The translations under genes were made by a program, and so were the position numbers. From contig OX597816.1 of the NCBI GenBank assembly GCA_951406725.2, positions 149,172,001 to 149,236,000 of the forward strand: a stretch of 64,000 nt of DNA, read 5' to 3'. Within the stretch, counting starts at the first letter, position 1. Each line of letters starts with the position of its first letter. The notes under the pieces were generated by a model. The model had not been told where the DNA came from and did no database searches. It saw only the letters and a list, made by a program, of their open reading frames with translations. Shown piece after piece: positions 1-33,472 of the stretch. Origin of the DNA: Octopus vulgaris (taxonomy: Eukaryota).

Positions 1-600
1 TTCAGGCCCTACAGGTTCAGTTTTCACACTGGGAACAATAACAAAACCACCAGAAGAATTGCCACTTTTACTAGCATCTAGTGAAGCAACCTCAGATTCC
101 TGTCCAAAGACAGCTGCTGTATCTTTCTTAACTTGTGCTAATTCAGCCTCAGATATCTCTTGTTTAACATCAATGACTTGTGTAGTGACAGATGGAGTAG
201 AGTGAGATGAAACTGATGTGATGGATGATGAAGGCAGAGATGGTTGAACTGTTGGAACTGTAATACTGGGTGGGTTTGATAGAATGGTCTGCATCTGGCT
301 GAGATCACCAAATACAGTAACCGTTGAAGCTGGTTGATGAGGTATTGTGCTTGGAAGACGACTATCACACAGTTGTTCAAATTCTTTCATGTCCAAACGT
401 TTTGCAATGATTTTTAACTGATGTAAAATATCAGGATCAATATCTAATAGCCCATTGTACATATATTCAGCAAAGGCATTTAAAGCTTCTGTGCTAACTT
501 CTTCAGGAAAGTTCACTTGGAGAAACTTGTGAGAGAGGATATCTGTACTAAATACTGACAACAGTTTTGGACACACAGCAGACAGGACAACTTTATGCAC
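1..600 (-). CDS. Constant exon C3: C-terminal part of BTB/POZ domain plus S/T/P-rich region (continues beyond window)
   Basis: Not in ORF track. Acceptor tgtgtttcag| at 602-601, then 200 stop-free codons: VHKVVLSAVCPKLLSVFSTDILSHKFLQVNFPEEVSTEALNAFAEYMYNGLLDIDPDILHQLKIIAKRLDMKEFEQLC..., matching BTB motifs HKxVLSA, F.EYMY.G.L and A..L.M..L...C. Also carries SUMO-consensus VKQE and VKTE. Confidence 0.93.
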   Translation of the reverse strand, partial: MHKVVLSAVCPKLLSVFSTDILSHKFLQVNFPEEVSTEALNAFAEYMYNGLLDIDPDILHQLKIIAKRLDMKEFEQLCDSRLPSTIPHQPASTVTVFGDLSQMQTILSNPPSITVPTVQPSLPSSSITSVSSHSTPSVTTQVIDVKQEISEAELAQVKKDTAAVFGQESEVASLDASKSGNSSGGFVIVPSVKTEPVGPE

Positions 601-958
601 CTGAAACACAAACACAAGGAATTGATTAGATAGGAGGGAAATATATGAACGGGAAACAGAAAACATAAAAAAGTAAAACCATTTGCATCTCTTAGAAATA
701 AAAATACATTCCTTGGATCCTATATGGTTTTATAAAGTATCAGTATTGCAAATAAGTTAATTCAATAAATCATATTGATTTCCTTCAAGAAAAAGGTCAA
801 GTCCCAAAGGAAGAACTTGATATTCTAATATTATTATCTTTGGAAGATTAGTCTGATGGAAAACATGCATTCTTCATTTGTTTCATGAAATGTTCTTTAA
901 ATAGTCAGTAAATTAATTTGTAGCCAGAGAATATTAATGTTAAAAGCAATATACCTAC

Positions 959-1262
959 CATCACAGTAGATGAGCCATTACCAATACCAGCATCACACAA
1001 CTTTCCACTTTTCCACAGAGATGCTAGATTGGACATGACACAACGCTGATGATCAGCAACAACAAATATTCGTTTTTCTCGTGGTCGAGGTTTTTCCACA
1101 GGCTTCGGTTTGGGTTCACTTATTTGAATTGGTGGAGCTAACACTTGAACAGGCCTTGTAATATTTTGAGAAACCTGGGCCACACTCATATGCTGCTGGA
1201 CTGGCATTTGAGCTTGTAGTGTTTTTGCAGCCATCTGAGATACCTGAGTGTTAACCATTTGT
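959..1262 (-). CDS. Constant exon C2: Q/P-rich linker and N-terminal part of BTB domain
   Basis: Acceptor ttaatttcag| at 1264-1263 and donor ATG|GTAGGT at 958. Encodes ...HQRCVMSNLASLWKSGKLCDAGIGNGSSTVM, which joins in phase 0 to VHKVVLSA of C3 (BTB L..L...G.LCD motif). Confidence 0.92.
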
Positions 1263-1349
1263 CTGAAATTAAAATTTACATTTTAGAAGATAATCACAAG
1301 TGATGTTCAAAATTAAGAGGCGAAAAGACCAATTAATCATCATACATAC

Positions 1350-1585
1350 CGCCGGTCATCAAATCGACGATTTTCGAACCTCCGTTCCTGGAAACGCTGC
1401 TCTTGGAAGCGTTGCTCATCAAAGCGTCGATCATCAATTTGTTTTTTCTGAATTTTTGCAGGTGAAGGTTGAGGAGGTGAATCATCTGGAATGAGCACTG
1501 GTGCAGACGAGACAGTGGCAGCAGCAATCTTTTTACGCCTAGGGTTCTCAGGCTTTCCGGAATATACTTGATTTGAAGGTCCTGC
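1350..1585 (-). CDS. Constant exon C1: common phase-0 acceptor exon with basic/charged linker
   Basis: Acceptor tctttgtgtttacag|GCA (phase 0) and donor CG|GTATGT at 1349 (phase 2, completed by the first A of C2 to give R-Q-M). Encodes AGPSNQVYSGKPENPRRKKI...DDRRFDEQRFQEQRFQERRFENRRFDDRR; PRRKK is NLS-like. Confidence 0.88.
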
Positions 1586-16623: not shown

Positions 16624-17016
16624 CAATTTTTTTCTTGTTAGCAGCATGCGATCCAGAGTTCGTGAAATGCATCCATCACTTACAAGTGGTTTTTGTGGCA
16701 AATTCAATCTCATACCCTCATTTATCTTCCGCAAGGTGATAGATGGGTTGTTGTTTATTGCTTCGTACAAGTAGGCACGCATCTCATCATCAACTTTCAC
16801 ATTGCATCTACCGCCTTTGAGTAATGCTTCTCGTTTGCCCGTTTTTATATAGTCTAAAATTATTCTGCTTGCAGTCTTTAGATTAATGCCCATGGATTTA
16901 GCAAAGTCCTTGTAGTTCGATCCACGATCATAACAATCTATGAGTTGATTGCGTGCGGCGTTGGACACGGGCGGCTTTTTTGTTCCACGTCCGCTGGATG
17001 CGGCTTGCCGGGGCAT
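16624..17016 (-). CDS. Variable exon V9: IS630/Tc1-like transposase N-terminal HTH domains
   Basis: ATG 17016; VS...R..LI..Y..G.....A..MGIN..TA..II..Y..TG......GGR...K......L...I..NP.ITL..I......VS...ISR.L.....T.KKL; stops before any DDE; donor TTG|GTGTGT, phase 0. Confidence 0.8.
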
Positions 17017-17053
17017 TGCAAAAATCACTCTTTATCAAAGCTGTCACGCAAAT

Positions 17054-17131
17054 GTGTGCTCACTTTGAAATCTCTATTCTCACTTTGAAAGTCACGTGCG
17101 CTCATTTTGAAAGTCACGTGTGCTCACTTAG
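17054..17131. repeat. About 3.5 tandem copies of a ~21-bp unit (gtgtgctcactttgaaagtcac) just upstream of V9
   Basis: Units gtgtgctcactttgaaa / tattctcactttgaaagtcac / gtgcgctcattttgaaagtcac / gtgtgctcacttag read directly. Confidence 0.8.
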
Positions 17132-17855
17132 ACTTACAAATACGATTTAGGTAAGGGTAAGAGGAGGTGAAAGACGTAAAAAGCGAGATCCCCGACTACT
17201 TACATGTTTTCAATATAGTTGTGATCGCTTTAAACACACCAAGGAGAAAAAAACCTCAAAAACTGTGTTTTCGATATAACATCACCACCAACTATTAAAT
17301 TATTTTACTGAGTCTGAGACAAAGAACCAGAATTATACTCCCCACAAATCTTTGTATATTCTCTAACCTACTTCAGACAATAGTTGTTTCCTATTTTACT
17401 AACTCGTTAAAATTATTCAAAAGTAACGTGTAAAGCCGAAACGGAAATGACGAAATGTATATAGTTTGTTTAAACTAACAAGAACACACTTCGTAAAATT
17501 TTTCTTGATTTTCAATAAACGCTAAAATAGGAAATTGAACAAAGGCACTCTAACCGCGACACTCCAGTCAACATATCGTAATATAATTTATATGAAAAGT
17601 ATTTCCTTTTATTTTATTAAAACGTCTATTGAACGATATATTGATTGGACAGTACGGCTACAACGCTTTAGGTTAATGCCTAAAAACAGCAGTAACTGAA
17701 AAAAAAAATCTTTTTTGAACATGTTCTTGTCGCGTATAAACTATGGATGTTCCGCCGTTTCGACGTTAGTAACCAAAGAAACGACTGTGGGTTTACCCAC
17801 TACTTTCGCACCCCTCCACCTATCTCTCATTCATACACGTTAAGAAATACTTTAC

Positions 17856-25377: not shown

Positions 25378-25473
25378 ATCTATGTATCCACCTGAGGAAT
25401 GGAGAACATTCATTGGTCTGACTGGTAGAGGATCAGGGTGGTCTCGTGTAGGTCCATTGCCACCAACAAAATG
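25378..25473 (-). CDS. Shared internal exon S: C-terminal half of THAP domain (32 aa)
   Basis: Not in ORF track. Acceptor attttctttcactccag|, 96 nt encoding HFVGGNGPTRDHPDPLPVRPMNVLHSSGGYID, donor GAT|GTAAGT; phase 0/0; closely matches V4 HFIGKNGPTPEHPDPIP. Confidence 0.9.
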
Positions 25474-26812: not shown

Positions 26813-28947
26813 GAAAGTCAAGCTGAAAGGTTGTATTAATAAGAGAGAAGGTGGGCATGAGAACCTAGTATCTGGATATGTAGTGTCACGTACCTGCTTA
26901 TACATACACACACACAGGCAATTATGTGAATAAACAAATTGGATGTATCAACTATATTAGTTTGGAAATGAAATATGAAGTATGTATACATGCATAACAA
27001 GAGAAAGCAGAAGATAGATACTTTCAGATAATGAAGTATATATATATATATAGGTCCAAGTTACAGAGTACAAACAACAAAGAAAATTTTAAAAAAGTTT
27101 TTGAAGTCCAACAGCGGGGACTCAGAGATCCATAATATTGTTGGTAGATTTAGTTCATTACAAGCAGCTGTATGGATGCAATTAACATCACTTTACAAGT
27201 TTTATTTTTCAAGCTCAAGATCTAAATCAAGTGCAAAAATTTCTACTACCATAAATGTTCCGGTGTATTACTGAGAAATTTATATAAAGCGAAAAAAAGC
27301 TTCTACGCAAACAATTCTAGACTTGTTATTTAAAAAGAAATCTACATGTCTGTCTAGGAGTGCTTGTTGAATTGGCAATCGTGTCTACAAGTGATGGTGG
27401 CATGAGTCTAGTGCAAGTGAAATTGATTCAGAAAATGATTATAATAATAATATTTTTTATTATAAATGATCTTGATATTCTTTTGACTTTACATAAAATA
27501 TTCTTTACATTCTACTGTTGTTTTATTGCCATTTATCTATCAGTATTATAAATTTTACAGATAAAATATTTTTTTCTGGAAAATTATTGTTCTGCTTTAT
27601 GTGTTTTAGTTTTACAAGCTATCTCTGGGAAAATATTAACTTGTATATCAAGGCATAACTGTATAAATAGACACATGGCCATATGAACAGAGTTAACTTC
27701 ATAATATGTTCTCAGGATCTATTTAAGTGGCAACTTGGGCAAATGTCTTGTACTACAGCTGCAGGTCAACTAATGACTTGTGAGAGAAATTGGAAAATGG
27801 AAACAGTAGGGATGCCTGTTGTGAGTGTGGATGTTTATATTCCTAGTTAACAATATGACATGTTTTCAAAGATCATTGGAATGAAAAAAATACCTGAATT
27901 TAAATCAGGTAATGGTTGGGAACTGGAAGAGTTGAGTTAATAAAAAAAAAATTGCTCCAGTCCTTAATAGAATCCATTGAATCTGATTATATGCGTTTGT
28001 TTAACCCTAAGTCATGACTGGGTGTCCCATGTCCTCCATACATTCTTAAAATGGTAGGGTGTGATTTGAAAGAACATCTGCTATTTAATTAGTTAAGCCA
28101 AGCAACTAACTGCACAGAGCTCCTTGTTTAGCCCCAAGTCATGTTTGGTCGGATTGATCAATGATGAAAGACAGGTTGTCTGTTTTTATTTCATCAGGTA
28201 TTGATTCCAAGAGTTGATGAACCTGATCACAAGTGTAACTTCAAAGTCAGATTTCACTGTCAATCTTTTCTTTGTAAGCATAAGTTTTAAGCTCTATATA
28301 TATATTTAGAATTGTTTCAGTTAACGTTTGAACGTCTTGCTAAGTCATTATGTGCCAGAAGACATGACTAGATGTACACACACACACAACAATAATATAT
28401 AAATACGTACGAAATATGTATGTGTGCATATACTGTTCTAACAGTCGATAATAGAAAGTGGAACCCTTCTTATTTTGGAATAAATCCATGGGCAGTTTAA
28501 TATTTAATTCAATGTTATTGTGTACATAAGTATTTGTGCATTCTAATCCACATTGCTGGAAAAGTATAAACATTGAAATTTTTTTTTAAGAAACATAATT
28601 CTTGAAAAAAATGCTTTAGTAGTAAAAAGTTCGAATAACGATTTCTGATGTATAACAAAGCATGTGGATAACATCTACCTTTCCCTTCACTGTTTTCTTT
28701 TTGACAAACTCAAGACGACCTTTTTAAAGTAAGCTATCATCAGATACGTAATACATGCCATCGAATTATTTTTGAAATATATCATAGAAGATAACAAAAA
28801 AGTCCATACATTGCAAATGAAGAAAATTAAACAGATTTAAGTTAATTTAGAATTAAGTAGCCTTTAAAGATGTAATGAATGTAATAAACAAGTTTGATAC
28901 AATGATATTATATATATATTATATATGTGTATGTGTGAATTACTTAC

Positions 28948-29124
28948 TAAGAAGGAATAACAAGGTTTTTTATAATGACGAGCGAGTGTGGCTTTAGGGA
29001 TTGCGAACTTCTTAGCAGCTTTTCTAATACTGAGACTTCCAGACAGTACTGCTGATACGGCAGAAACCATCTGGCTAGATGACCACTTCCCATTGTCTGT
29101 TTTCCGGACATACGACTGAACCAT
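28948..29124 (-). CDS. Variable exon V11: pipsqueak-type (psq) HTH
   Basis: ATG 29124; MVQSYVRKT....W....M..AV.AV..G.LSIRKAAKKFAIPKATL.RH; donor TTA|GTAAGT, phase 0. Confidence 0.85.
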
Positions 29125-30080
29125 AATTGACTTCCAAAATTTCCAACAACAAATTTCTTCAGTAAGCCACTTTACACTGAACAACTCAATCTTTTTATCA
29201 TACTATACTTAGAAATAGCATTCGTTACCTTTCCATTTAATTTTATTAATACAGCAATCGATTTCATACGAAGTGCGGTAAAAACTATTTACAATAGTAT
29301 TTTTACACTAAGCATTCTTCGATTCTTAAGTATGGAATACTAATAAAAATAAATACAAGAAAACGAACGCAAATTCTTTAACTATTTATTTTCTCCGCAG
29401 GGCCTTAATGTTTGTTTACAGACACGTCAGACGTGATCGAATAACGAATTTTTTTTAACAATCAGTCTTTTAAGAGGATCATATCTTCAATATAAGCACA
29501 GAAAACTGTTAAGTTTTAGTTACATTAGAAGATCTGACCATATAATAGATATGTTGACAATATAAAAATACAAGCCCCGCATTAGGTGAAATCGTCGATT
29601 TTCAGAGTGTCTCTATGAAACAGACAGTCGGCCATTTTGTAAATCACAATTAAATAAACAACGTAACGTTTCCTTTGAGTATCTGACATGAATTCTTCCA
29701 GATAAATTCACAAATCCAATAATATACATTAAAAAAAAAAACTAGTTCTAAATATATAAAAAAAAAGCAAATGAAATATTAAAAACTACGAAACACAGAC
29801 AACCGCCACCGTGTCATCCACAGAGAAGACTTCCATAATAACGTTAAAGATTCTCGCGAGAATTTGCCGAGATGTTGCAAAGCAACAAACTACTATTGAG
29901 AAAACATTGAAAGTTCAAGGAGGAGGGGAAGAGAGCCTGGCCACTCGATTTCGATTCTAATTTGGAGTCATTTTACTTTCATCTATGTTAATAACAACCT
30001 AAAAATGTTCCAGCCTATTCCTAATTTTTCTCTTAAAGAACAGTTTAGATAGAAATAGGAAGAAATATAAAAAGGTTAGT

Positions 30081-30880
30081 GAGTGTGGGCGCACGAAAAA
30101 GTAGCCTGGATTCAGTAGCGTAGTGTATATAGAGAATTGATTTTACTCGCTTGTTCTTGTCATCCACTTTTAATTGCTGTACACATGTGAAATGAGTTGG
30201 ATCCAACTTTAGACTTTTCAACACCCGCTGGCATGTCCTCCTGCTTATGTGAGACTCCTGCGCCAATTTACGTGTTGACTTGTTTGGACTTCGAGTAATC
30301 CTTCGGCGAACCTCCTGAATAACTTCCGGCGTTCGAACTGTAGGGTCTCTTGGTTTGGGGGCGTTGTGCACTGACCCCGTAGCGCGCCACTTCTTAACCA
30401 ACATTTGTATCGTTCTTTTTGCCGGTAAGCCTTTACCCGGAAACTTAACTTCAAAAATTTCACGCGTTTGCTTAACAGAACCCGTTCTCACATACGTTTT
30501 CACAATCTCCATCCTTTCTGCTATTGAGTACGTCATTTTGCAGAAAAAAACCCAGAGATGTCAACTCAACGCAACCATACAATCAACTAATGTGGTGGGG
30601 ATAACGTAGCAAACAGTCGACTAGTACGCCATCTTTGATCAGCAGTTACACGCGGTCGAAATAACACAATGACACATGCAAACGAAAGGCCGAATGCTTT
30701 TTTTGCTTGGGTAAATTTATTTCTGTATTCACACTATGCTACGGAACCCAGGCTAATTTTTCAGTCGAAATAACACAACGGCACTTGCAAACGAAAAACG
30801 ATATTTTTCACATGTTTTATTTTATTTTTGTATTTACACTACGCTACAAAATCCGGGCTACTTTTTCGTGCTCCATCCTG
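30081..30880 (-). mobile_element. Internally deleted mariner/Tc1-like element containing V12
   Basis: Imperfect TIRs: gcacgaaaaagtagcctggattcagtagcgtagtgta (30091-30127) vs tacactacgctacaaaatccgggctactttttcgtgc (30835-30871); ~108-bp direct duplication 30655-30762 / 30764-30868. Confidence 0.8.
30147..30536 (-). CDS. Variable exon V12: mariner-like transposase N-terminal HTH (DUF4817-like) domains
   Basis: MTYSIAERMEIVKTY..TGS....F..KFP....P....I..LVKKW..TGSV......R..TVRTPE.I..V...I.RSP.KSTR.LA....IS...C.R.LK; no DDD; donor CGA|GTAAAA, phase 0 (weaker site). Confidence 0.75.
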
Positions 30881-33472
30881 AGTTAGTGGGTGTGTGCGTG
30901 CAAGCAGACTGCAAGGTGATCTTTGTCTCATGTTCTGATTCTGCCAATCTAACACCATGGATTAATGTTTTACCGATATGAGAAATATGAAAAGCAGGTA
31001 CAAAAGCTGAACTCAAAGGGATTTCAAGTTCAGGATGGAATGATGCAATCCCTAGATGACAAAGTTTCCAACAGTTTTTGATGGTCAGATTCTTTCAAAA
31101 CATGAAAGACTCAGAAAAACATCTTCAAAATGAGGTGGGTGTTGTAGTATGAATTTACCAGATTTGTTTGTAAATAGAGCATGTCGTTTCTATGCATACA
31201 TAGTCAACCACTTAACCACGCATCTGTTTAAGTTTTAACTAATACCCTGTGAATATGGTAGTTGGAAACTGCAGAAGTGTGTTGTGCAGTATCTCTGTTG
31301 TCTGTCTTTAAGTTGGCATTGCTTAAAGAAAAATTGGTACCATTTATGTCCTGTTTCCGTTCACTAAATTTTATCACACTGTGGCCGTAGCAGAAGCTAG
31401 TGAATTGAACTTCTTGTTAACATAGCCACATCGCTGTCTAGAGTGCATAGTCATTGTCATCAGATGACGGTGAGCAACCAAAACTGCGAAGTCACAATGG
31501 ATAGATGAGTGTTTTAAGATGAGGAGAGAGTGCAAGGTAGAGTACACACATCACACATAAACTTGTATTAAGAAGTTTGCTTCCCAACCAAGTGATTTAG
31601 GGGTTCAGTCCCACTGCATGGTGCTTTGGGCAAGTGTCATCCTGTGCCTTTATGAGTGGATCTGGCAGAGAAACTGATGGAAGGCTGTCAAATGTGCGTT
31701 TTCATGTCTGTCTTGATATCGCAAAACACCATCATATAATGGTGCTATTCGTTTTTACAGATTAGTGAAAACATGTCTAGGTATGGGAAAATATTACCTT
31801 GCTTGTAAAACAGGAAGTTGGTGACTGGAAGAGCATCCAGTCACAGAAAATCAACTGCAATAATTTGTCTGACCTATGCAAGTATGGAAAAGTTGGACAA
31901 AAAAATGACATAGTTACTTAATAACTGTTTCATTCAGTTCTGCATTTAAGTTTCATAGGCAAAGACATTCCATTTCATCGGTTTGAAGAGTGGAAAGAAT
32001 TTAAAAGACAATGGTTTCTAAGTGTATAGAATTCTATTGGTCAGATTAAACCATGTGGTTAGTTTTGCTCTCATACAGGTAACAGTTATTTTATTGTTAG
32101 GTCCACTTGATGAAGCAGACAAGATGTTGGTGTAAATTTGTACGCATTCTGCAGGGTAACAAATTCAGAGACATCAGCTCTCTACCATGGATACTGAATG
32201 TGATAGGGTGTAGACAATTAGTCACTATTCTGTAGGATAGGGTATTTTAGTGACAATAGTTATGCTGAGGGTGGTCAGTAACCAATTTGATGGTGTTGGG
32301 TCATAGATATATTCAAATGACCAACATAATTAAGCAGCAATCTCTACATGTAGCAGGGTAGGATGCTAGCGAGACCTAGGGTGGTATATCTCATTATTAG
32401 AAGCTATAGGTTTGAAGCTCATTAACAATGTATGTCCACTAGCAACAATAAGATAGGTAGGTAATTTTTCCTTTTGACAAATACAGTAGGCTGGTAGAGG
32501 GGTTTGCATGTTCTCATGAAGAGAAAGCAGCTAGCAATTATCATATGCAAGTGTGCTTGTATGTGAATGTAACTACACACATACTGTTGGTGATTTCTTT
32601 TACTTCTTTGGACCTTTCCCTGTATATCATGTGTGTATTGTTCCCCGTTTATCATATGTGTGTATTGTTCATTTTAAGGTCTGTTTTCCATGCTAGCATG
32701 AGTTAGACATGGTGTTATTCGAGGCAGGATATCATAGCCAGATGTTTTTTTCTTTTTGCTAAACTGTAACTTATTTCAAGGAAGGGCTCTTTTTCAGGTT
32801 TTCAAATGCACAGTGTCAGGCAATAATATAAACTGTCATAAACATTTATGTGCATGGGTTTCCTGTAATTTTTCATTCAAATTCATTCACAAGGCCTGGA
32901 ACTATAGCAAAGCCACTCAAAGTGCTATTTAAACACAAGACTAAACCATAATAATACCACTTGGTTGTGGGTGTATGATCATATTGTGTATGGCCTTAAT
33001 CAGCCATGTAGACCAATTTATATCTAAGACAGGTAGTTCAGTATATAATCTATATTATATAATATATATATTATACAAGAAAAATATTTAGTGCACTTAG
33101 CTAATGAGTATACATGTAAATGTTTATTGCTATGTTCTGTTTGTGACTGAGTTTTGTGAGTTAATTTCAAAGATGGATTCCAAGATTAAGATTCAATATC
33201 CATGTTATGCCTCAGAGCCATACCTACTATTGGTATTATGTCAGGAATAAATATTAGTATTATATAGTTAAAACTACATTCCAGAAACCCTAAACTACAT
33301 CTAATTACAATGCTGTTATAATTTCTGAAAGCCTTCAAACATCATAATACACTAATTTAACCCTTTAGTGTTCAAATTATTGTCAAATGTAATTGCTTAT
33401 TCATTTACATTTCTTTGAATCAATCATGAATTATTTCATAGCTTTGAGATTTTGAAGATATGATTGCATATA

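What the first reader, a model, noticed from the sequence alone, without database searches (positions are those of the whole stretch)
30081..30880. Exon capture caught in the act: V12 still sits between the TIRs of its parent mariner-like element
The intact HTH ORF is flanked by ~40-50-bp imperfect inverted repeats. The element is only ~800 bp because the catalytic DDD part is deleted right after the phase-0 donor, the upstream end carries a ~108-bp tandem duplication, and a YY1-like CGCCATCTT (30627) lies inside it. Inference: a transposon inserting in sense orientation supplies promoter, ATG and DNA-binding domain, and needs only a phase-0 donor to join the array. The fusion protein might bind its own TIR-like sequences (autoregulation or TE silencing).
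Basis: partly seen in the sequence, partly recalled or inferred. Interest (0 to 1): 0.82.

Follow-up and report, generated by a model that had tools for sequence, protein, structure and literature searches.

The report
Transposon DNA-binding exon, octopus regulator gene
A broken jumping gene sits inside an octopus regulatory gene that collects such DNA-binding pieces as alternative first exons; unlike its dead sister copies it has kept a working-looking protein part, so it was probably recruited, although the splice that would join it to the gene has not been seen.

Summary
The element is real: a ~800-bp copy of a dead, dispersed Tc1/mariner-type family (134-nt TIRs) lying sense within an octopus BTB gene whose annotated isoforms begin with many transposon-type DNA-binding first exons. 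V12's 130-codon ORF folds as a complete SETMAR/Mos1-like double HTH. It alone is intact (0 of 37 other copies), has diverged half as much as its own non-coding parts (6.1% vs 12.9%), and its amino-acid changes are the most tolerated of 40 copies, which points to protein-level constraint; dN/dS itself is not distinctive. Corrections: the catalytic deletion, the GT and the YY1-like motif come from the family, not from this locus; the donor scores lowest in the array; TA target sites are gone, so the insertion is old, not 'in the act'; the expected acceptor is a shared exon at 25473, not 1585; another exon (17016-16624) also keeps a TIR remnant. Contigs from four probable RNA runs cover V12 but none shows its junction, whereas neighbour V11 is spliced in three. 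Verdict: probably a captured minor first exon, splicing unproven.

The parts
30147..30536 (-). V12 ORF, 130 codons from ATG to the putative donor; complete bipartite HTH transposase DNA-binding domain (helices at residues 5-53 and 70-108) plus linker
   Evidence: DUF4817 E 3.8e-14; pLDDT 93.7; SETMAR DBD 7s03, TM 0.64, E 4.4e-4; Mos1; intact
30141..30146 (-). putative phase-0 donor CGA|GTAAAA; the GT is the family's Val codon; lowest score among the 23 GT donors listed
   Evidence: score -1.9 with a matrix of recalled frequencies; GT present in 21 of 32 alignable copies including V12; use not observed
30045..30146 (-). unspliced run-on of the frame through the TIR remnant to a stop (163-aa product if unspliced)
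   Evidence: contig of run X1 reads through to 30108
30081..30146 (.). downstream TIR remnant: outer ~66 nt of the 134-nt family TIR; inner part lost by a microhomology deletion; no TA flank
30537..30640 (-). element leader (candidate 5' UTR/promoter) with the family-ancestral YY1-like AAGATGGCG at 30635-30627
   Evidence: motif is the family consensus, exact in 6 of 39 other copies; 'YY1-like' is a recalled label
30641..30762 (.). inner copy of the upstream TIR (lacks its outermost ~16 nt)
30763..30880 (.). outer copy of the upstream TIR (tandem duplicate); element end at 30880, no TA flank
   Evidence: in 26 of 26 annotated isoforms whose first exon lies upstream
1..1585 (-). constant region: acceptor at 1585 and exons leading to the BTB domain (gene continues past the window start)
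   Evidence: (PF00651)
28948..29124 (-). neighbouring variable exon V11 (HTH_psq); positive control for splicing
   Evidence: annotated isoform P0039; contigs of X1, X3, X7 stop at 28948 with 29 unlaid letters
16624..17143 (-). older precedent: Tc1-like HTH first exon 17016-16624 with a remnant of its own parent's TIR at 17052-17143
   Evidence: annotated isoform P0004, 100% identical; 21 other candidates at 65-87% identity; 17052-17143 matches both ends of dead copies L078, L080

Best explanation
V12 is a captured, probably minor, alternative first exon. A non-autonomous Tc1/mariner-type element that already lacked its catalytic domain inserted in sense orientation into the first-exon array of an octopus BTB gene (shown: anatomy, family, orientation). 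It brought an ATG, a whole double-HTH domain, a leader and a latent phase-0 GT (shown to be family-ancestral). The ORF has since been kept open and its DNA-binding part has accepted only tolerated substitutions (shown statistically). Transcripts start in or near the upstream TIR and a fraction splices from 30147 to the shared exon at 25473 and on to 1585, giving an HTH-BTB transcription factor (inferred, junction not seen). The domain would be expected to recognise the family's TIR, as the SETMAR domain binds Hsmar1 TIRs (inferred from fold).
For: 0 of 37 other copies with at least 330 aligned nt keep an open frame; expected disruptions 3.6-4.6 at V12's non-coding divergence, P(none) 0.01-0.03. 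Non-CpG divergence ORF 21/346 vs non-coding 45/348, Fisher p 0.003; in 30 other copies ORF 11.6% vs 5' non-coding 12.6%. Shortest unpaired end branch in a star tree, 0.074 vs median 0.16. Mean BLOSUM62 of V12's 13 changes +0.62 vs -0.30 simulated, P 0.014, highest of 40; profile change in residues 1-108 -0.29 vs -2.2 to -3.4 in 39 others, P 0.0005, and still the mildest of 40 with a profile from 7 transposases found by another query. The radical changes K112D and Y114T lie after the last helix. Contigs of 4 of 4 probable RNA runs cover 30323-30576 and none covers 28500-28947 or 30964-31300; the X2 contig ends at 30146, one base into the donor. Same-gene precedent at 17016-16624. Only family copy in 154 kb of the array.
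Against: No contig carries V12 plus letters of a next exon in 4 of 4 runs, while V11 does in 3 of 4; X1 reads through the donor. The X2 end at 30146 fits a fork before a G-starting exon such as 1585, not the C-starting 25473 exon, and X7 ends the same way at another GT (30323), so it may be chance. 0 of 33 annotated isoform sequences seen start with V12 (17 of 32 members of one cluster were never listed). Donor scores lowest of 23 and is not improved over the family form. dN/dS 0.60 vs 0.68 pooled for 24 dead copies; 13 amino-acid changes vs 15.3 simulated, P 0.18; ORF vs inner TIR plus leader alone p 0.066. The haplotype in X2 and X3 carries P33R at a position that is Pro in 35 of 56 relatives, with two synonymous changes. 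The finding was picked because the frame is open, out of a large family.
Confidence: 0.6

Rival explanations
1. Constrained but not fused: the element is transcribed from its own leader and makes a free 163-aa HTH protein, or acts as an upstream ORF in long transcripts that run on to V11 and splice at 28948.
For: X1 reads through the donor to 30108 and its V11 contig reaches up to 30006; X2 also covers 29807-30065. Weak donor.
Against: No AATAAA/ATTAAA before 29390, inside V11's leader; a stop 1.1 kb above the V11 junction would invite nonsense-mediated decay (established knowledge); sibling first exons are fused.
Confidence: 0.14
2. Ordinary dead intronic insertion whose frame stayed open by luck in an unmethylated, slowly mutating promoter region; the RNA is read-through.
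For: Large family (2392 first-look candidates); synonymous divergence is low too (dS 0.085); 21 of 22 CpGs kept; L002, with no BTB or array-exon hit in 40 kb around it, is also lightly damaged (8.7%, one stop); P33R; no junction seen.
Against: The tolerated-substitution signal is independent of mutation rate and separates V12 from all 39 others, L002 included; no other full-length open frame of this family among the 150 matches scored.
Confidence: 0.12
3. A once-used exon that is now decaying: constrained for much of its history, with splicing weak or lost today.
For: Constraint signal together with a weak donor, no junction in 4 runs and P33R in one haplotype.
Against: No stop or frameshift in the ORF in the four runs' contigs over the parts they cover; still covered by contigs of all four runs.
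Confidence: 0.09
4. The tolerated changes arose before insertion, in a rare, later-active master element, and V12 is a younger neutral copy of it.
For: The two outer TIR arms share two derived bases that the inner copy lacks.
Against: No copy groups with V12 in the tree, and no copy shares more than 8 of its 45 differences; TIR arms are only 81-86% complementary and TA is lost at both ends, which means age.
Confidence: 0.05

Closest known systems
Host-transposase fusion genes born by transposase capture (SETMAR, KRABINER, PGBD3-CSB; 10.1101/2020.05.07.082677, passages read)
   Same: DNA-transposon insertion into a host gene, transposase DNA-binding domain on its own exon, splice site already present in the element, candidate fusion to a host regulatory domain; V12's model matches the SETMAR domain bound to TIR DNA.
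   Different: There the captured site was an acceptor upstream of the ORF in 8 of 9 cases and the transposase part follows host exons; here the element would supply start, ATG and a donor, as one of many alternative first exons, and the partner is BTB. The junction is not shown here.
Drosophila mod(mdg4) and lola (PMC11426971, passages read)
   Same: One BTB gene with tens of isoforms that differ in the DNA-binding domain.
   Different: Those have a constant N-terminal BTB and variable C-terminal FLYWCH or C2H2 exons, joined partly by trans-splicing; here variable first exons of unrelated transposon types (THAP, CENP-B/Tc5, psq, DUF3504, Tc1-like HTH) precede a constant BTB region, all on one strand.
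Non-autonomous Tc1/mariner deletion derivatives of the DDD clades maT / rosa / LTIR (PMC5490172, passages read)
   Same: TA-flanked TIRs in the family, internal deletions at microhomologies, DUF4817 HTH, dead full-length relatives with a DD..D-type domain.
   Different: TIR of 134 nt lies between rosa (28-32) and LTIR (about 460); the third catalytic D is unreadable in the dead parents; this copy alone keeps its frame.

Membership tests
Tc1/mariner superfamily, non-autonomous derivative | terminal inverted repeats | tested here: met
   134-nt family TIR; remnants at both V12 ends
Tc1/mariner superfamily, non-autonomous derivative | TA target-site duplication | tested here: inconclusive
   TA at 35 of 48 scored family termini, at neither V12 end
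Tc1/mariner superfamily, non-autonomous derivative | bipartite HTH DNA-binding domain | tested here: met
Tc1/mariner superfamily, non-autonomous derivative | dispersed copies and a parent with a catalytic domain | tested here: met
   L005, L008, L022 continue into a broken catalytic domain
rosa/Visitor DD41D or maT DD37D family | spacing between second and third catalytic D | tested here: inconclusive
   third D lost or shifted in the dead parents; six full-length relatives give 38-41
host-transposase fusion gene | spliced transcript joining the transposase exon to host exons | tested here: inconclusive
   no junction-bearing contig in 4 runs; short fork contigs can be left out; 0 of 33 annotated isoform sequences seen
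host-transposase fusion gene | splice site supplied by the ancestral element | tested here: met
   GT in 21 of 32 copies (its use is unproven)
host-transposase fusion gene | purifying selection on the transposase part | tested here: inconclusive
   open frame, low divergence and tolerated changes for it; dN/dS not distinct
host-transposase fusion gene | orthologous, intact copy in related species | not testable with these tools
   no related animal genomes held; no protein above 73% identity found among 16 hits
host-transposase fusion gene | binding of the domain to the cognate TIR | not testable with these tools
   needs EMSA or ChIP
mod(mdg4)/lola-type BTB locus | constant N-terminal BTB with variable C-terminal DNA-binding exons | tested here: not met
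   variable part is N-terminal, BTB is in the constant C-terminal part

The most novel reading that the evidence does not exclude
This BTB gene is a standing trap for transposase DNA-binding domains: any DNA transposon that lands in sense in the array with a phase-0 GT after its HTH becomes a new first exon, and the product reads the TIRs of that same family across the genome, a transposon-recognition repertoire built from the transposons' own domains. V12 is the member whose two ends and hundreds of target TIRs are still legible, so target prediction can be tested directly.
Probability: 0.25. Interest if true: 0.88.

Novelty: new variant of a known kind. Interest (0 to 1): 0.6.

Why it matters
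Transposase capture is known mostly as single events in vertebrates that add a last exon. Here it looks repeated in one invertebrate gene, as first exons, with stages side by side: V12 (both TIRs, parent family at about 14% divergence), the exon at 17016 (one TIR remnant, family at about 30%) and exons with no such trace checked. V12 gives a predicted binding site (the family TIR) and many genomic copies of it, so the step from transposase to transcription factor can be tested. If the junction is absent it falls back to an unusually well-kept dead insertion.

Tried and rejected
Search for longer proteins holding the V12 domain: 0 of 77 candidates; uninformative, since isoforms of this gene are merged under one representative. 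Near-length search: 16 hits, 41-73% identity, none an orthologue; the unspliced 163-aa product is not in the collection. No listed run is on record as RNA; kinds are guesses. Absence of contig cover at 30066-30145 in X2 is not used: the Logan paper's passages state a 150-bp rule in two ways and the tool drops some records. L002 was checked as a second captured copy: no BTB or array-exon hit within 40 kb. YY1-like motif enrichment: none. A first comparison of TIR ends against a CpG-eroded consensus overstated V12's non-coding divergence (14.4%) and was redone (12.9%); terminal TIR bases diverge more than the ORF in other copies too (16.2% vs 11.6%, 28 copies), so the all-non-coding test leans in favour of constraint. 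The non-coding columns were faulty and are not used. The profile came from a search with V12 itself, hence the check. Copies dropped before counts: 9 duplicate loci, 2 with under 330 aligned nt, 9 of 39 without a scorable 5' part, 3 short rows in the tree. Sequence search of solved structures: only SETMAR at E 0.06. Earlier findings: none returned. No complex prediction was run.

Full report
Setting. The window lies in a 2.8-Gb animal genome (G000); proteins like its constant exons are named from Octopus, Argonauta and a cuttlefish. A minus-strand gene ends in a BTB region (acceptor 1585). Public protein models show that it has many different N-termini: 33 isoform sequences were mapped (one chained model, P0058, left out), with first exons from 3291 out to about 150 kb. 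Of 19 candidate first exons scanned, 15 hit a transposon-type DNA-binding family at E up to 0.01 (THAP, CENP-B/Tc5, HTH_psq, DUF3504, HTH_29, zf-C17orf113). All 26 isoforms that start upstream of it include it; the 7 that go straight to 1585 start downstream of it. V12's expected partner is therefore 25473; either junction would be in frame.

The element. The frame 30536-30147 encodes 130 residues matching DUF4817 (E 3.8e-14). The model (pLDDT 93.7) has two three-helix units ending at residue 108 and is closest to the SETMAR DNA-binding domain on TIR DNA (TM 0.64, E 4.4e-4), then Mos1 and Pax. The inverted repeats and the tandem duplication are there. A DNA search scored 40 of 170 candidates at about 73-84% identity over their main match; a protein search scored 150 of 2392. 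The common form is a ~750-bp element with 134-nt TIRs whose frame breaks about 28 nt after the GT; L005, L008 and L022 run on into a broken catalytic domain. So the catalytic deletion came with the element. V12 has lost a further piece, the inner part of the downstream TIR, between two short repeats, as have L003 and L006. TA flanks 35 of 48 scored family termini but neither V12 end. The GT is the family's Val codon (21 of 32 copies) and the YY1-like motif is the family consensus. The exact DDD subfamily could not be fixed.

Age. The tree of 37 copies is a star with 1 of 34 inner branches well supported; V12 has the shortest unpaired end branch, 0.074 vs median 0.16, and no sister. Its non-coding parts differ from the consensus at 45 of 348 non-CpG sites (12.9%), like other copies (12.6%). 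It is as old as the extinct family, so 'in the act' overstates; no absolute date was possible.

Constraint. V12 has no stop or indel; 0 of 37 other copies with at least 330 aligned bases are open (181 disruptions over 1973 substitutions). At its non-coding divergence 3.6-4.6 disruptions are expected (P 0.03-0.01); at its own 22 substitutions 2.0 (P 0.13). The ORF differs at 21 of 346 non-CpG sites (6.1%): p 0.003 against all non-coding parts, p 0.066 against the inner TIR and leader alone. The number of amino-acid changes is not low for 22 substitutions (13 vs 15.3, P 0.18) and dN/dS is 0.60 vs 0.68. Their kind is unusual: mean BLOSUM62 +0.62 vs -0.30 simulated (P 0.014), highest of 40 copies; against 45 distant relatives the ten changes in residues 1-108 cost -0.29 bits each vs -2.2 to -3.4 in the 39 other copies (P 0.0005); V12 is again the mildest of 40 with 7 transposases found by a different query. 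The two radical changes fall after the last helix. Against this, the haplotype in runs X2 and X3 carries P33R (Pro in 35 of 56 relatives) with two synonymous changes, and V12 kept 21 of 22 CpGs (others 300 of 782), so part of its low divergence may be mutational.

Expression. Four of 24 listed runs were laid on 28500-31300; all are assembled contigs guessed to be RNA, without strand or level. V11 contigs stop at 28948 with 29 further letters in 3 of 4 runs, the mark of a splice. All four cover 30323-30576 and none covers 28500-28947 or 30964-31300. None carries V12 plus foreign letters. X1 reads through the donor to 30108; X2 ends at 30146, which fits a fork between read-through and a G-starting exon (1585 begins with G, 25473 with C); X3 ends at 30187; X7 ends at 30323, likewise one base into a different GT, so such ends can be chance (14 GT in 223 nt). 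The donor scores -1.9, lowest of 23 GT donors listed, with a matrix of recalled frequencies. Splicing is neither shown nor excluded.

Precedent in the gene. The exon 17016-16624 is annotated as spliced (P0004, 100% identical), has 21 other candidates in the genome at 65-87% and keeps 17052-17143, which matches both ends of dead copies. Its donor is also a GT at the end of the HTH region. V12 is thus a younger-looking case of a route that has already succeeded here, and not the only exon with a transposon end; only three other exon regions were checked for paired repeats, and none had a convincing pair.

Mechanism. Shown: sense insertion of an already deleted element, whole DNA-binding domain, ancestral GT, open frame, tolerated changes, contig cover. 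Inferred: promoter in the element, splicing to 25473 and 1585, HTH-BTB protein, TIR binding. I put the captured-exon reading at 0.6; a free or upstream-ORF HTH at 0.14; a lucky dead copy at 0.12; a decaying exon at 0.09; pre-insertion constraint at 0.05.

Literature. Passages were read of 10.1101/2020.05.07.082677 (capture through element-supplied splice sites, an acceptor in 8 of 9 cases), PMC10027918 (notes Octopus THAP and CENPB proteins with BTB; the word 'isoform' does not occur in its main text; 12 of 14 places seen), PMC11426971 (mod(mdg4), lola), PMC5490172 (rosa, LTIR, microhomology deletions) and PMC12424806 (contig rules). Six searches listed no paper describing this array or V12; most subscription papers are not searched, and the supplements of PMC10027918, not opened, may list these proteins. 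The isoforms themselves are in public annotation as uncharacterised proteins.

Verdict. Observation partly confirmed, interpretation partly supported. A probable transposase-capture exon of a variant kind (first exon, element-supplied donor, BTB partner) in a striking and apparently undescribed array; the decisive junction is missing.

Noticed in passing
window:1-64000 and at least 86 kb beyond its high end (L033-L038, L075-L077): The whole gene: a BTB constant region with more than 20 alternative first exons of unrelated transposon-type DNA-binding domains and nested shared exons (25473-25378, about 96119-96069 and about 150255-150208 in extended coordinates); an Argonauta isoform (P0010) shows the layout is shared. 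Likely more important than V12 itself.
   Followed up: partly
window:17052-17143: TIR remnant of a different, older Tc1-like family just upstream of the annotated first exon 17016-16624.
   Followed up: yes
window:30075-30091 and 30882-30898: A 17-nt near-direct repeat (15 of 17) touches both ends of the V12 element and overlaps the low-end TIR; GT-rich, may be chance or a repair footprint.
   Followed up: no
proteins P0011-P0031: Paralogous octopus and cuttlefish BTB genes also carry varied N-termini (FLYWCH, PF21599, THAP plus zinc fingers, HTH-like, charged repeats); several share a contig, suggesting a cluster of such genes.
   Followed up: no
L002 (G000:C3:153031110-153031871): Second best-kept family copy: no indel, one stop, 20 of 22 CpGs kept; no BTB or array-exon hit within 40 kb, and its changes are not tolerated by profile.
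   Followed up: yes
window:40020-40235 (-): Partial Tc5/CENP-B-type HTH frame in sense with the array, no annotated isoform seen; possible decayed or unannotated exon.
   Followed up: no
G000:C15:28948398, C4:138897968, C5:59504343, C10:104223018, C22:43344976 and others: A different DUF4817 transposase family with several near-equal, stop-free 358-aa frames, apparently young; about 37% identical to V12, not its parent.
   Followed up: no
window:29720-29760: V11 contigs of three runs begin here, suggesting a start about 600 nt above the V11 ATG, with a YY1-like motif at 29638.
   Followed up: no
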